Shown: positions 40,766 through 44,385 of the stretch, in pieces
Numbering within the stretch: the stretch's first letter is position 1
Layout: each line of letters begins with the position of its first letter
Source: Escherichia coli
Lineage (GTDB): Bacteria > Pseudomonadota > Gammaproteobacteria > Enterobacterales > Enterobacteriaceae
DNA: 64,000 nt
Strand: one strand, 5' to 3'
NCBI RefSeq assembly: GCF_024502345.1
Contig: NZ_JALDNN010000001.1
The notes under the pieces: model-generated
What the model was told of the DNA's origin: nothing
The model's database searches: none
What the model saw: the letters and a program-made list of their open reading frames with translations, nothing else
Position numbers and translations under genes: made by a program

Positions 40766-43111
40766 ATGTCATCAACTAATTTCAGTCAGATCGCAGCCTT
40801 CCTGTGGTCTGTCGCCGACCTGTTACGCGGCGATTTTAAACAATCCCAATATGGGCGAATTATTCTCCCTTTCACTCTTCTTCGTCGTCTGGAATGCGTA
40901 CTCGAAACAACGAAAGACGCGGTCATTGCCGAGGCGCAAAAAGTAAAAGCCATGAAACTGCCGGAGGAAGCCCAGGAGAAAATGATCCTGCGGGCGACTA
41001 ATGGCCTCACGTTCTTTAATGCCTCAGCAATGGATCTCAGCAAAATGGGGCAAAATGGCATACAGGACAACCTGGAAAACTACATCCAGTCGTTCTCTTC
41101 GGATGCCCGCGAAATTTTCGAACACTTCAAGTTCAGCGAGTTTGTCGGACAGCTGGCGGATGCGAACTTACTGTTCAAAGTGGTGCAAATATTCGCTAAA
41201 GCAGATTTATACCCGGAGCACGTCACCAACCACGATATGGGGCTGGTATTTGAGGAGCTGATCCGACGTTTTGCCGAGAGTTCTAACGAAACCGCGGGGG
41301 AGCACTTTACCCCGCGTGATATCGTCAATCTGACCACCTCGCTGGTGTTTTTCGATGATGATGACGCGCTCAATAAAGACGGCATCATCCGCACCATTTA
41401 CGATCCAACGGCAGGAACCGGCGGCTTTCTCTCCTCCGGCATGGAGTTCGTCCACAAACAAAACCCCAATGCCGTGATGCGCGCGTTTGGTCAGGAGTTA
41501 AACCCGGAATCCTACGCCATCTGTAAAGCCGACATGCTGATTAAGGGCCAGGACGTCAGCCTTATCAAACTCGGCAACACCCTGTCCAACGATCAGCTCC
41601 CCGCAGAAAAATTCGATTACATGCTTTCTAATCCACCTTTCGGCGTGGACTGGAAAAAGATAGAAACCGACATCATCAACGAGCACAAACTCAAAGGTGC
41701 CGATGGTCGATTTGGCCCCGGCCTGCCCCGCGTCTCCGACGGTTCGTTGCTGTTTCTGCTTCACCTGATCAGCAAAATGCGCGATGCCAAAAGCGGTGGC
41801 GGGCGGATCGGCATCATTCTTAATGGTTCGCCGTTATTCACCGGCGGTGCAGGAAGCGGTGAAAGCGAGATCCGCCGCTACATTCTGGAAGCGGATTTGC
41901 TGGAAGGCATTATCGCCCTGCCCACCGACATGTTTTACAACACCGGTATCGCTACCTATGTGTGGATTTTGTCGAATAAAAAAGCGCCAGAACGCAAAGG
42001 CAAAGTCCAGCTTATTGACGGCAGCAACCTGTGCGGCAAGATGCGTAAATCGCTGGGGTCAAAACGCAATATTCTCGGAGACGAGGATATTGGTTTAATC
42101 ACCCGCACGTTTGGCGATTTCGAACCCGTTGCCACCACCACGCTTGCGGCGTTAGGCCTGGAGAAAGCACCTGAACAAAAATCCAGCCGGGGACGCCAGC
42201 CCGCAACAACCAAAACCGAGGCGGCAAAAACCTTTGCCAGCAAAGTCTTTCACAGCACCGAGTTTGGCTATCGTCGCATCACCGTTGAGCGCCCGTTACG
42301 CCTGTCGGCTCAGATCACCGATGACGCCATTGCCACATTACGCTTTGCGCCGAAGCCGTTTAACGCGCCGATGGCACAACTGTATGACGCCTTTGCTTTC
42401 CAGTGGCAGGACGGTAATTACGGCGACTTAACAGCGCTAGAAAGTGAAGCCCGCGCCATTCTTAAAGCCGATTTTAGCGAGCTGAAAGAGAAGCAAATTA
42501 AAGATCTGCTCGACAGCAAATTATGGCTGGCCCAGCGCGGATTAATGGAAAAAGCGCGGCGTATTCAGGCGGCGATGGGTATGCAGGCGGGCGGCAAAGA
42601 CACCGTTAGCAATAACTTTAATCTGTTCCAGTTGACGCTGAAAGAGGCGTTCAAAACCGCAGGCGTGAAGCTGGATGCGAAAGAGAACAAGCAGTTTATC
42701 GATGCCATCACCCGCAAAAACCCGGATGCCGAGCCGGTAATCAGCAAGGTACTGAAAGAGGCGGCCCAACCGCTGTATGGCGCGTGTGAGTACAACGGAA
42801 AGGTTGTGGAGTTTGAACCGGATGGCGACCTGCGCGATAACGAGAATGTACCGTTAAATCCGTCTGTATCTACCAGCGAGTTGATCGAGGGTTACTTCAA
42901 AGCAGAAGTGTTGCCGCACGTTGCGGATGCGTGGATTAACGCCGATAAGCGCGATGCGAAAGATGGGGATATCGGGATTGTGGGGTATGAAATTCCGTTT
43001 AATCGTCATTTTTATGTTTATCAGCCGCCAAGGCCGCTGGAGGAGATTGATGCGGATCTGGATGCGGTAAGCGCTGAGATTATGAAACTGTTGCAGGAGG
43101 TACATTCCTGA
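40766..43111 (+). CDS. hsdM: Type I restriction-modification methyltransferase subunit (long form, ~780 aa)
   Basis: N-terminal HsdM_N-like region, AdoMet motif [10 protein letters not shown], catalytic NPPF (LSNPPFG), plus about 300 aa of C-terminal extension. ATG at 40766 with aagga SD 9 nt upstream. Confidence 0.8.
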
Positions 43112-44385
43112 TGGCAGGGTTAAATAAATATCAGGCGTATCCGGAGTATAGGGATTCTGGGGTGGAGTGGTTGGGGGAGATTCCTGCTCATTGGGAAACG
43201 TTACAGCATAAATACGTCGCATATTATACTAAGGGCAAAAATCCTTCTTTTTTGCTCGATACCCCAACAAAGAACACCCTACCTTATCTTTCTATGGATT
43301 GTTTAAGAAATAACTCCATAGATAAATATGCTATAGTATCTAATGATATTCGTATTGCATTAGAGGGACAACCACTTATTATTTGGGATGGTTCTAATGC
43401 TGGGGAATTTGTCAAAGGCCGAAAAGGTATTTTATCCTCAACGATGGCCTCTGCAACGCTTAATTATCCTTTGCACATGCAATATTACTGGTATTTATGC
43501 ACTGCAATTGAATCTGAAATGCGTAAACATGCAAATGGTATGGGTATCCCTCATGTAAATGGAGAAGAATTAAAGAACATTCATCTAAGTATCCCTTCAA
43601 TAACCGAACAAAAAAGCATCGCTGGTTTTCTTGAATTTGAAACAACGAAAATTTCGAACCTTATAGAAAAACAACAACAACTAATTGAATTACTAAAAGA
43701 AAAACGTCAGGTCGTGATTAGCCATGCGGTCACAAAAGGGCTAAATCCTGACGTGCCGATGAAAGATTCTGGGGTTAAGTGGTTGGGGGAAGTTCCAAAA
43801 CACTGGCACATATGCAAGTTAAAATGGTTTGCTAATTTGAAAAGTGGTGATTTTATAACCAGCAATTCAATAGAACCAGAAGGAAACTATCCTGTATATG
43901 GTGGAAATGGATTAAGAGGATATTATTCTTATTTTACACACAATGGTGAATATGTTCTTATTGGTAGACAAGGTGCTCTTTGCGGAAATATAAATTACGC
44001 AATTGGAAAGTTTTGGGCTTCAGAACATGCTGTTGTTGTCACCCCAAACGAAAGAGCTGTTACAATATGGTTAGGAGAATTATTAAGAATAATGAACTTA
44101 AACCAATATTCAGTTTCTGCTGCACAACCGGGGCTTGCGGTTGAAAGAATTACTGATTTATATATTCCAATCCCACCATATCAAGAGCAAATAAATATCG
44201 GAACTTATATATCTAAATATATTTCTCTAGATAAAAAATTGATTGAGCATAGTACAGATAATATTGAACTCCTCAAAGAACGCCGCACCGCCCTTATCTC
44301 CGCCGCCGTCACCGGCAAAATTGATCTACGCAACTGGACCGCGCCCATCCCCGAAGCGGAAACACCCACGGAGGCCAGCGCATGA
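43111..44385 (+). CDS. hsdS: Type I restriction-modification specificity subunit
   Basis: 424-aa ORF with internal duplication ([16 protein letters not shown] / [30 protein letters not shown] / [14 protein letters not shown]) and two AT-rich target-recognition domains; start overlaps the hsdM stop. Confidence 0.85.
   Translation: [424 protein letters not shown]

What the first reader, a model, noticed from the sequence alone, without database searches (positions are those of the whole stretch)
43111..44385. hsdS has two sharply AT-rich target-recognition domains between GC-normal conserved spacers
Roughly 43200-43640 and 43800-44250 are markedly AT-rich, while the repeated conserved segments ([21 protein letters not shown] and [21 protein letters not shown]) have normal composition. 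That mosaic is the signature of recognition-domain shuffling by recombination, meaning the sequence specificity of this system was probably imported separately from the scaffold.
Basis: seen in the sequence. Interest (0 to 1): 0.3.

Follow-up and report, generated by a model that had tools for sequence, protein, structure and literature searches.

The report
AT-rich swappable domains in hsdS
This is an ordinary Type I restriction-enzyme specificity gene in E. coli whose two AT-rich DNA-recognition modules are demonstrably swapped between strains, a textbook way for bacteria to change which DNA sequence they cut; the AT-richness is a general trait of such modules, not a mark of a recent import.

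Summary
The composition mosaic is real. The AT blocks 43185-43700 (GC 0.35) and 43798-44250 (GC 0.33) lie between GC-normal pieces (0.50, 0.50, 0.58). GC3 is 0.23 against 0.56 (Fisher p = 7e-10).

Domain shuffling is shown directly. Of 5426 complete E. coli genomes, 116 carry this hsdM-hsdS-hsdR cassette at the yjiA-yjiS locus. Twelve alleles show 7 TRD1 types and 6 TRD2 types in mixed combinations. This TRD2 occurs in 59 genomes, behind four different TRD1 types among the sampled alleles. It has no difference over 393 nt from an allele whose flanks differ by 4-13%. This TRD1 occurs in only 2 genomes.

AT-richness does not mark a recent import. EcoKI (IA), EcoCFTI (IB) and EcoMII (ID) hsdS genes show the same mosaic. 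A Pantoea homologue of TRD1 is as diverged as its hsdM and is still AT-rich. TRD1-like domains are AT-poorer than their flanks in 66 of 73 diverse genomes.

Verdict: a known phenomenon, in a rare allele of a Type I family that is not IA, IB, IC or ID. Interest is low.

The parts
40766..43111 (+). hsdM, the Type I methyltransferase subunit (781 aa from the RefSeq start; the ORF opens at 40757). Its stop codon overlaps the hsdS ATG by 1 nt (TGATG).
   Evidence: Pfam HsdM_N plus N6_Mtase. PADLOC MTase_I PDLC03029, 928 bits. GC 0.518, GC3 0.61. Overlap read from the sequence.
43111..44385 (+). hsdS, the specificity subunit (424 aa), with architecture N-cons / TRD1 / central helix / TRD2 / distal helix.
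   Evidence: Two PF01420 stretches. PADLOC Specificity_I, 360 bits. 12-allele alignment.
43111..43184 (+). N-terminal conserved segment ([25 protein letters not shown]), GC-normal (0.50).
43153..43184 (+). Copy 1 of a 32-nt direct repeat (GATTCTGGGGTGGAGTGGTTGGGGGAGATTCC, the [11 protein letters not shown] box). Alleles diverge between about 43170 and 43185, within and just 3' of this box, so it marks the 5' junction of TRD1.
   Evidence: the repeat finder family D1, 88% identity between copies. Allele divergence points seen.
43185..43700 (+). AT block 1: TRD1 type 'A' plus the first half of the central conserved helix. GC 0.347. A rare, deep-branching allele segment.
   Evidence: Not alignable to the other alleles, and CCR_a is only 75-82% nt identical. 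Present in 2 of 5426 E. coli genomes. Nearest relative 77% aa, in Pantoea.
43701..43797 (+). GC-normal middle spacer (GC 0.495): second half of the central helix, a linker, and copy 2 of the DSGV(K)WLGEVP box (43765-43796).
   Evidence: 89-94% nt identity to the other alleles.
43798..44250 (+). AT block 2: TRD2 type 'a' plus the first half of the distal helix. GC 0.331. A cassette shared recently between alleles.
   Evidence: No difference from L002 over 43798-44190, and one difference up to 44264. At least 99% identical in 59 genomes. Found behind TRD1 types A, B, C and D.
44251..44385 (+). C-terminal conserved segment ([25 protein letters not shown]...), GC 0.578. Overlaps the hsdR start by 4 nt.
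44382..47645 (+). hsdR, the Type I restriction/translocase subunit (1087 aa).
   Evidence: Pfam HSDR_N, ResIII/SWI2_SNF2 and T1R_D3-like. TIGR00348 at 181 bits, below its cutoff.

Best explanation
The feature is the specificity gene of a complete Type I restriction-modification operon (hsdM-hsdS-hsdR). The operon sits in the E. coli 'immigration control region' between yjiA and yjiS/yjiR.

HsdS has the standard modular build. Two variable target-recognition domains each read one half of a bipartite DNA site. Conserved helices hold them apart and dock onto HsdM.

In the E. coli population the TRDs behave as exchangeable cassettes. Homologous recombination crosses over in the conserved framing sequences and reassorts TRD1 and TRD2 types on a common scaffold. 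Those framing sequences include a 32-nt GC-rich box repeated in front of each TRD, the helices, and the hsdM and hsdR ends.

This allele is a three-age mosaic:
- a scaffold 3-8% diverged from other E. coli copies;
- a rare, old TRD1 block (type A, with its own version of the central helix start);
- a common TRD2 (type a) that is effectively identical to copies sitting on diverged scaffolds, so it was exchanged or swept recently.

The AT-richness (GC3 about 0.23) is a standing, family-independent property of TRD DNA. It extends to adjacent helix halves and is not a time-stamp of a recent foreign import.

What is shown: the anatomy, the composition, the reassortment and the recent sharing of TRD2. 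What is inferred: crossover by homologous recombination at the conserved boxes, and that the A-a combination specifies a distinct bipartite target. What is unresolved: why TRDs stay AT-rich.
For: Identity and context:
- Pfam and PADLOC hits.
- RefSeq annotation of near-identical loci, with flanking btsT-yjiX-yjiA and yjiS-yjiR-mdtM.

Reassortment:
- 116 genomes carry the scaffold. 2 have this exact hsdS, 57 more share about 81% of the query (TRD2 only), and the rest share only the scaffold.
- The 12-allele alignment shows mixed TRD1/TRD2 combinations.
- Per-segment identities: TRD2 99-100% against L002, L004 and L005, while the hsdM 3' end is 96% and the hsdR 5' end 94-95%.
- There is a 393-nt run without differences, bounded by 43797 and 44191, in sequence whose neighbours differ by 7-13%. 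All 145 conserved codons in TRD2 are identical, against 0.92 in hsdM.

Junctions:
- The 32-nt repeat D1 lies at 43153-43184 and 43765-43796. Alleles diverge within or just 3' of it.
- L010 carries in position 2 a TRD about 70% identical to the position-1 TRD of L004. L006 has also replaced the N-terminus.

AT-richness is generic:
- EcoKI hsdS is 0.404/GC3 0.316 against hsdM 0.548/0.657.
- EcoMII hsdS is 0.375/0.297. EcoCFTI hsdS is 0.399/0.353.
- Each shows AT-rich TRDs between GC-normal conserved regions.

AT-richness persists:
- Pantoea sp. RIT-PI-b has the same family (HsdM 788 aa, 81% identical) with a TRD1 78% identical.
- Its TRD1 nt identity is 0.75 against 0.76 for hsdM. Its hsdS is GC 0.403/GC3 0.31 and its hsdM GC3 is 0.55.

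Cross-taxon:
- TRD GC is below flank GC in 66 of 73 loci. The mean difference is -0.049 (Wilcoxon p = 1.6e-11), with r = 0.92 and slope 0.74.
Against: - The recognition sequence and the activity were not measured.
- The GC deficit here (about -0.15 against the flanks) is three times the cross-taxon mean. Some contribution from lower-GC donors is therefore not excluded.
- The identical TRD2 tract could reflect a recent sweep of one TRD lineage rather than repeated transfers.
- Only 12 of the alleles in 116 genomes were read in full.
- The Pantoea argument assumes co-divergence. Two independent acquisitions from AT-rich third parties would give the same picture.
Confidence: 0.85

Rival explanations
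1. One reading: the AT-rich blocks are recently imported foreign DNA from a low-GC donor that has not yet drifted to E. coli composition. The GC mosaic therefore marks the imported tracts.
For: - GC3 of 0.23 is far below E. coli genes (hsdM 0.61).
- The GC deficit is larger than the cross-taxon average for this TRD family.
- TRD1 type A is nearly absent from E. coli, in 2 of 5426 genomes.
- TRD1 relatives occur in very diverse bacteria and archaea.
Against: - Every allele and three other Type I families in E. coli have the same mosaic.
- AT-rich tracts include conserved helix halves and the conserved hsdR 3' end.
- The closest homologue (Pantoea) is only 75% nt identical, is as diverged as its scaffold, and is equally AT-rich.
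- No near-identical donor was found among 100,044 species representatives or in E. coli.
- TRD GC tracks host GC (r = 0.92), so TRDs do adapt to their hosts.
Confidence: 0.2
2. AT-richness is an equilibrium property generated in place. TRD alleles are too diverged to form heteroduplex with one another, so they escape GC-biased gene conversion, or any recombination-linked force that keeps E. coli GC3 high. They then sit near the AT-biased mutational equilibrium. The conserved junctions, where crossovers occur, stay GC-normal or GC-rich.
For: - GC-normal or GC-rich sequence coincides with the segments that align between alleles and where junctions map: the D1 box at 0.50-0.57 and the C-terminus at 0.58 with GC3 up to 0.73.
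- The deficit is systematic across 66 of 73 hosts and grows with host GC (slope 0.74).
- It persists in both E. coli and Pantoea after synonymous saturation.
Against: - This is purely correlative. GC-biased gene conversion in bacteria is itself debated (own knowledge).
- The conserved first halves of the helices, the conserved hsdR 3' end and the downstream 237-aa ORF are AT-rich although they do align between alleles.
- No polarised-substitution test was run.
Confidence: 0.2
3. The low GC simply reflects the amino-acid composition demanded by the TRD fold (rich in K, N, I, Y and F). It would then be neither history nor mutation bias.
For: GC1 (0.43 against 0.58) and GC2 (0.36 against 0.46) are lower in the AT blocks.
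Against: - The largest and only highly significant contrast is at synonymous third positions (0.229 against 0.564, p = 7e-10). GC2 is not significant (p = 0.10).
- Homologous TRDs reach GC 0.50-0.58 in high-GC hosts. The fold therefore does not force AT-richness.
Confidence: 0.05
4. The gene is a phase-variable specificity shufflon that switches TRDs within one cell by site-specific inversion, as in the pneumococcal or Bacteroides hsdS systems.
For: The modular TRDs and a repeated 32-nt box resemble the recombination targets of such systems.
Against: - The box is a direct repeat, not an inverted one. The longest inverted repeats are 14-19 nt chance-level matches.
- There is only one hsdS, with no silent hsdS fragments and no invertase or integrase in the locus.
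- The allele is stable: 3 SNPs against L001.
Confidence: 0.02

Closest known systems
Allelic Type IA hsdS genes of enterobacteria (EcoKI, EcoBI, StySPI, StyLT7III and the natural or laboratory recombinant StySQ). This is the classical case of TRD reassortment (Fuller-Pace 1984, Nagaraja 1985 and Gann 1987, as cited in PMC12707154).
   Same: - The same chromosomal locus (the immigration control region next to yjiA).
- The same TRD1-CR1-TRD2-CR2 build.
- The same 1-nt hsdM/hsdS overlap (PMC3510504).
- The same composition mosaic: EcoKI hsdS is 0.404 against hsdM 0.548, with TRDs at 0.30-0.41 and conserved parts at 0.43-0.57.
- New specificities arise by recombination in conserved regions.
   Different: - Gene order is M-S-R instead of R-M-S.
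- HsdM is 781 aa, against 529 aa.
- HsdM and HsdR are only 27% and 23% identical to EcoKI.
- The accompanying genes are GmrSD, BrnA and Fic, instead of Mrr, McrBC and SymE.
Type ID systems (StySBLI, EcoR9I, KpnAI). They are represented here by EcoMII of E. coli EC958, whose HsdR is 92% identical to the StySBLI HsdR and which recognises AAC(N4)CTTT (PMC4659465).
   Same: - hsdM-hsdS-hsdR order at the same locus, next to brnA.
- HsdR of exactly 1087 aa.
- An AT-rich hsdS (0.375) with GC-normal conserved parts.
   Different: - HsdM is 27.8% and HsdR 23.7% identical.
- The HsdS conserved regions are unrelated.
- HsdM is 539 aa, against 781 aa.
- This is not the same family.
Type IE KpnBI of Klebsiella pneumoniae (Chin et al. 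2004, cited in PMC3874165).
   Same: From memory of the abstract only: an unusually long hsdM (2631 bp) overlapping hsdS by one base. That would resemble the 2346-bp hsdM and the 1-nt overlap here.
   Different: The hsdM lengths differ (876 against 781 codons).
TRD shuffling and 'domain movement' in other species: Staphylococcus aureus Sau1 (PMC5399793) and Helicobacter pylori hsdS (cited in PMC12255300).
   Same: - A limited repertoire of TRD types combined on a constant scaffold across lineages.
- A TRD type can appear in either position: the TRD2 of L010 is about 70% identical to the TRD1 of L004.
   Different: A different Type I family and different hosts. Here the exchange is between allelic copies at one chromosomal site in E. 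coli.

Membership tests
Type I R-M specificity subunit (HsdS) | Two Methylase_S (PF01420) target-recognition domains | tested here: met
   PF01420 at E = 2.5e-33 with 2 stretches. PADLOC Specificity_I at 360 bits.
Type I R-M specificity subunit (HsdS) | Variable TRDs alternating with conserved helical regions (TRD1-CR1-TRD2-CR2) that are shared by alleles of one family | tested here: met
   The 12-allele alignment has conserved N-terminal, central ([57 protein letters not shown]) and C-terminal blocks, with variable TRDs between them.
Type I R-M specificity subunit (HsdS) | Encoded next to hsdM and hsdR in one operon | tested here: met
   hsdM lies upstream with a 1-nt overlap and hsdR downstream with a 4-nt overlap.
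Type I R-M specificity subunit (HsdS) | Directs m6A methylation and restriction at a bipartite target | not testable with these tools
   Needs SMRT or nanopore methylome data or restriction assays. REBASE was not available.
Type IA (EcoKI family) | High HsdM/HsdR sequence identity to EcoKI (family members complement one another) | tested here: not met
   blastp gives HsdM 26.6% and HsdR 22.9% identity to the K-12 proteins.
Type IB (EcoAI family) | High HsdM/HsdR identity to EcoAI-type proteins (proxy: EcoCFTI of CFT073, called Type IB in PMC8287963) | tested here: not met
   HsdM is 25.9% identical. HsdR aligns over only 81 aa, at 30.9%.
Type IC (EcoR124I family) | High HsdM/HsdR identity to EcoR124I | tested here: not met
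   phmmer against PDB: the EcoR124II M protein matches at E = 3.7e-26 over the catalytic core only. HsdR matches over a 65-aa stretch at E = 4e-11.
Type ID (StySBLI family) | High HsdM/HsdR identity to StySBLI (proxy: EcoMII of EC958, whose HsdR is 92% identical to the StySBLI HsdR per PMC4659465) | tested here: not met
   HsdM 27.8% and HsdR 23.7% identity.
Type IE (KpnBI family) | Sequence identity to, and complementation with, KpnBI subunits | not tested
   No KpnBI sequence is held and the paper was not available. The only resemblance is a long hsdM, recalled from memory.
Phase-variable hsdS inverton/shufflon | Inverted repeats within or between multiple hsdS copies, plus a linked recombinase | tested here: not met
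   The only notable repeat is direct (D1) and the inverted repeats are 19 nt or shorter. There is a single hsdS and no invertase in the locus.

The most novel reading that the evidence does not exclude
The hsdS gene may be a natural within-gene experiment on what keeps bacterial GC content high. Segments that can pair and recombine between alleles stay at host GC: the junction boxes, the second helix halves and the C-terminus. The TRD cassettes cannot form heteroduplex with other alleles, and they sit near the AT-biased mutational equilibrium (GC3 about 0.2). They do so stably, across genera and across Type I families. On this reading AT-rich TRDs are a product of exclusion from recombination-linked GC enrichment (or a similar in-place force), not of foreign origin.
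Probability: 0.15. Interest if true: 0.5.

Novelty: new member of a known kind. Interest (0 to 1): 0.2.

Why it matters
For annotation, this is a functional-looking Type I system whose A-a TRD pair probably gives a recognition sequence that has not been described. Its Type I family is resident in the E. coli immigration control region but is not IA, IB, IC or ID.

For interpreting scans, low GC in hsdS recognition domains should not be scored as evidence of a recent transfer. It is the normal state of these domains in every family examined here. The convincing evidence for shuffling comes from allele comparison, not from composition.

The wider question is why TRDs stay AT-rich in GC-normal genomes. 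It is only mildly interesting, but it could be tested with public data.

Tried and rejected
- **Short-query protein searches.** The search for homologous proteins with each TRD alone listed only proteins shorter than about 280 aa. No full-length HsdS appeared, not even the E. coli alleles. The lists were therefore used only for rarity (52 hits against 1079) and rough taxonomy.
- **Known specificities.** Whole-protein blastp of this HsdS against EcoKI (AAC N6 GTGC), EcoMII (AAC N4 CTTT) and EcoCFTI (GAG N7 GTCA) gave only matches of 25% identity or less to EcoKI and EcoMII, and short weak fragments (34% or less over about 35 aa, E >= 0.004) to EcoCFTI. phmmer against PDB gave no EcoKI or EcoR124I S-subunit hit. 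It found only 7eew (an M-S fusion, TRD2, E = 1e-17), 1yf2 and 1ydx. No half-site can be assigned. A literature search for 7EEW found nothing useful.
- **Type ID and IE papers.** PMC60208 and PMC524312 are not held.
- **Type ID idea.** The EcoSal review reports Type ID (12%) and GmrSD (12%) in the immigration control region and lists brnAT among the accompanying toxin-antitoxin systems. That suggested this might be Type ID. Direct comparison with EC958 EcoMII rejected it.
- **Promoter and terminator scan of 40300-48900.** Promoter-like sites were not enriched over shuffles (10 found, 14.1 expected). No internal promoter is claimed.
- **Literature on hsdS GC content.** The search returned nothing specific. 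One paper reports that hsd gene GC deviates from the host genome in general (PMC12255300).
- **Inverted-repeat shufflon.** Rejected.
- **Amino-acid-composition explanation.** Rejected on the GC3 contrast.
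Full report
**What is there.** The window is E. coli chromosome around the 'immigration control region'. Near-identical loci in RefSeq genomes are flanked by btsT-yjiX-yjiA on one side and yjiS-yjiR-rpn-mdtM on the other. Between these anchors lie:
- a BrnA antitoxin gene, a Fic-family gene and a GmrSD Type IV restriction gene, all on the minus strand;
- hsdM (40757/40766-43111), hsdS (43111-44385) and hsdR (44382-47645) on the plus strand;
- a very AT-rich 237-codon ORF.

HsdS has two PF01420 stretches. HsdM has HsdM_N plus N6_Mtase. HsdR has the HSDR_N, helicase and T1R_D3 domains. PADLOC models agree. The hsdM stop overlaps the hsdS start by one base (TGATG), and hsdS overlaps hsdR by four.

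**Checking the observation.**
- hsdS is GC 0.386/GC3 0.308. hsdM is 0.518/0.611, hsdR is 0.498/0.604 and the window is 0.505.
- A finer partition gives five pieces: N-terminus 43111-43184 at 0.50, AT block 1 43185-43700 at 0.347, middle 43701-43797 at 0.495, AT block 2 43798-44250 at 0.331, and C-terminus 44251-44385 at 0.578.
- Only 1-2% of 450-nt windows in the 64 kb are as AT-rich as either block. The contrast is chiefly synonymous: GC3 is 0.229 against 0.564 (Fisher p = 7e-10).

The mosaic is therefore real and not chance.
- The central 'spacer' 43641-43799 is 0.396 overall.
- The named segment [21 protein letters not shown] is 0.397.
- The conserved first halves of both helices are as AT-rich as the TRDs (0.30 and 0.22).
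- The second named segment, [21 protein letters not shown], is 0.54.
- Composition boundaries thus do not coincide with the conserved/variable boundaries.

**Is it domain shuffling?** Yes, and this can be shown without appeal to composition.
- A 2.5-kb query spanning the hsdM 3' end, hsdS and the hsdR 5' end hits 116 of 5426 complete E. coli genomes, always once and always on the chromosome. Two match fully (99.8%), 57 more cover about 81%, and most of the rest cover about 56-60%.
- Twelve alleles were read and aligned. All share the N-terminal, central and C-terminal framework.
- TRD1 falls into seven types: A in the window and L001; B in L002 and L003; C in L004 and L011; D in L005, L008 and L009; E in L006; F in L007; G in L010.
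- TRD2 falls into six types: a in the window, L001, L002, L004 and L005; b in L003; c in L006; d in L007-L009; e in L010; f in L011.
- The combinations A-a, B-a, B-b, C-a, C-f, D-a, D-d and F-d cannot be explained without recombination between the two TRDs.
- The TRD2 of L010 is about 70% identical to the TRD1 of L004, so a TRD type can occupy either position.
- L006 has also replaced the N-terminal framework.

**Ages of the pieces.** All comparisons below are with L002.
- hsdM is 97% and hsdR 96% nt identical, with the same codon at 0.92 and 0.90 of conserved residues.
- TRD2 has no difference from 43798 to 44190 and one difference up to 44264. All 145 conserved codons are identical.
- The 158 nt before TRD2 differ at about 13% of sites. 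The 535 nt after it differ at about 7%.
- At 4% divergence, the chance of 393 identical bases is about 1e-7.
- TRD2 'a' was therefore exchanged or swept recently across scaffolds that had already diverged.

TRD1 'A' is the opposite case.
- It cannot be aligned with the other alleles, and the adjoining start of the central helix is only 75-82% nt identical.
- Sensitive blastn finds it in just two E. coli genomes. TRD2 'a' is in 59.
- The left edge of each variable tract abuts a 32-nt direct repeat (43153-43184 and 43765-43796, 88% identical). The repeat encodes DSGV(E/K)WLGE(I/V)P and is the obvious conserved crossover substrate.

**Does AT-richness mean import?** Four controls say it does not, at least not a recent one.
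1. All 12 alleles are GC 0.377-0.408.
2. The hsdS genes of three unrelated Type I families at the same locus have the same pattern.
   - EcoKI (IA): hsdS 0.404/GC3 0.316 against hsdM 0.548/0.657, with TRDs at 0.30-0.41 and conserved parts at 0.43-0.57.
   - EcoMII (ID): hsdS 0.375/0.297.
   - EcoCFTI (IB): hsdS 0.399/0.353, with conserved parts at 0.5-0.59.
3. A scan of one genome per species (100,044 species) with TRD1 found 78 loci.
   - The closest is Pantoea sp. RIT-PI-b. It has the same family scaffold (HsdM 788 aa, 81% identical, and the same HsdS framework) and a TRD1 78% identical.
   - TRD1 and hsdM are equally diverged between the two genera: nt identity 0.75 against 0.76, and same-codon fraction 0.48 against 0.53.
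   - The Pantoea TRD1 is still AT-rich (GC 0.39, GC3 0.30), while its hsdM has GC3 0.55.
   - Type A thus looks like an old member of this family's repertoire whose AT-richness has outlived synonymous saturation.
4. Across 73 loci with usable flanks, TRD GC is below flank GC in 66.
   - The mean difference is -0.049 (Wilcoxon p = 1.6e-11).
   - TRD GC nevertheless follows host GC closely (r = 0.92, slope 0.74).
   - TRDs therefore adapt to their hosts but sit systematically lower.

One caveat remains. The E. coli deficit (about -0.15) is three times the mean, so some input from lower-GC donors cannot be excluded. Conserved but AT-rich DNA also exists outside the TRDs: the helix halves, the hsdR 3' end (GC 0.33-0.44 yet 93-100% identical between alleles) and the downstream ORF (GC 0.26).

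**Which family?**
- HsdM and HsdR are 27% and 23% identical to EcoKI, and 28% and 24% identical to EcoMII. EcoMII's HsdR is 92% identical to the StySBLI HsdR (PMC4659465).
- HsdM is 26% identical to EcoCFTI.
- Matches to EcoR124I in the PDB are weak.
- NCBIfam hsdM and hsdR models score below their cutoffs.
- The system is therefore not IA, IB, IC or ID.
I recall that its hsdM is also unusually long.
- A 2025 review describes IA, IB and ID families, with accompanying Type IV systems and toxin-antitoxin modules, at this locus (PMC12707154). The cassette here looks like a further resident family.

**Specificity.**
- No TRD of known specificity available to me resembles either TRD.
- TRD2 belongs to a very common TRD family: 1079 hits, with 60-72% identity in Nitrosomonas, Methylovulum and Ottowia.
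- TRD2 matches the TRD of the M-S fusion protein in PDB 7eew. It also weakly matches a 633-aa 'N-6 DNA methylase' present in 36 E. coli genomes.
- TRD1 belongs to a rare family: 52 hits, the best 62% identical.

**Verdict.** The shuffling interpretation is right but is proven by allele comparison, not by composition. The inference that AT-richness marks a separate import is not supported. TRD reassortment is textbook biology for Type I systems. What is new is only a rare allele (A-a) in an uncharacterised family, plus a modest general point about persistent AT-richness of TRDs.

Noticed in passing
window 38565-40481 (-), indel at about 38577: The GmrSD (DUF262 + DUF1524) Type IV restriction gene has a 1-nt deletion in a T-run relative to L001, whose CDS is 700 aa. 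The reading frame ends about 62 codons early, giving 638 aa. This is either a real frameshift or a homopolymer sequencing error.
   Followed up: partly
window 47711-48424 (+): An extremely AT-rich (GC 0.26) 237-codon ORF lies directly after hsdR. It encodes a hydrophobic protein that looks multi-pass membrane-like, with no Pfam hit above cutoff and no PADLOC hit. It is conserved (89-100% nt) downstream of hsdR in L001-L003 and annotated there as hypothetical. It may be an accessory gene of this cassette.
   Followed up: partly
window 46950-47645 (+): The last 700 nt or so of hsdR drop to GC 0.33-0.44 although they are 93-100% identical between alleles. This is AT-rich but conserved sequence, so low GC is not confined to variable segments.
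   Followed up: partly
window 42140-43108 (HsdM aa 460-781): HsdM carries a C-terminal extension of about 320 aa with no Pfam domain. HsdM of the IA, IB and ID families is 489-539 aa. The Pantoea homologue also has the extension (788 aa).
   Followed up: no
window 37164-38339 (-): A brnA antitoxin gene has no brnT. A Fic-family gene (244 aa, no Pfam or PADLOC hit here, called Fic in RefSeq) sits immediately upstream of it on the same strand. In EC958 the same site holds brnT-brnA. This may be a Fic/BrnA-type toxin-antitoxin replacement.
   Followed up: no
L094 4535-6436 (E. coli M7424); also PDB 7eew: A 633-aa 'N-6 DNA methylase' is present in 36 E. coli genomes. It lies next to an AAA ATPase gene and beside a separate Type I operon near nanS. 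It contains a 99-nt match (74.7% identity) to TRD2 type 'a'. TRD2 also matches the TRD of the M-S fusion protein 7eew (E = 1e-17).
   Followed up: partly
window 40482-40756: The divergent intergenic region between gmrSD and hsdM is very AT-rich (GC 0.27-0.33). It presumably holds both promoters, but the simple consensus scan reported no promoter-like site there.
   Followed up: partly
window 2441-3061, 9851-10811, 22341-22961, 63371-63991: These are the other patches with GC below 0.38 in 450-nt windows elsewhere in the 64-kb window. They were not examined.
   Followed up: no
window 48427-48464 (-): A strong terminator-like hairpin (16-bp stem) lies on the minus strand just downstream of the AT-rich ORF. 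From its position it may terminate yjiS.
   Followed up: no
L002 15375-16595 (E. coli SK1144): In some genomes with this cassette, yjiR is truncated to a pseudogene and mdtM is missing. An Rpn-family nuclease gene abuts the break. The right-hand border of the island is therefore itself variable.
   Followed up: no
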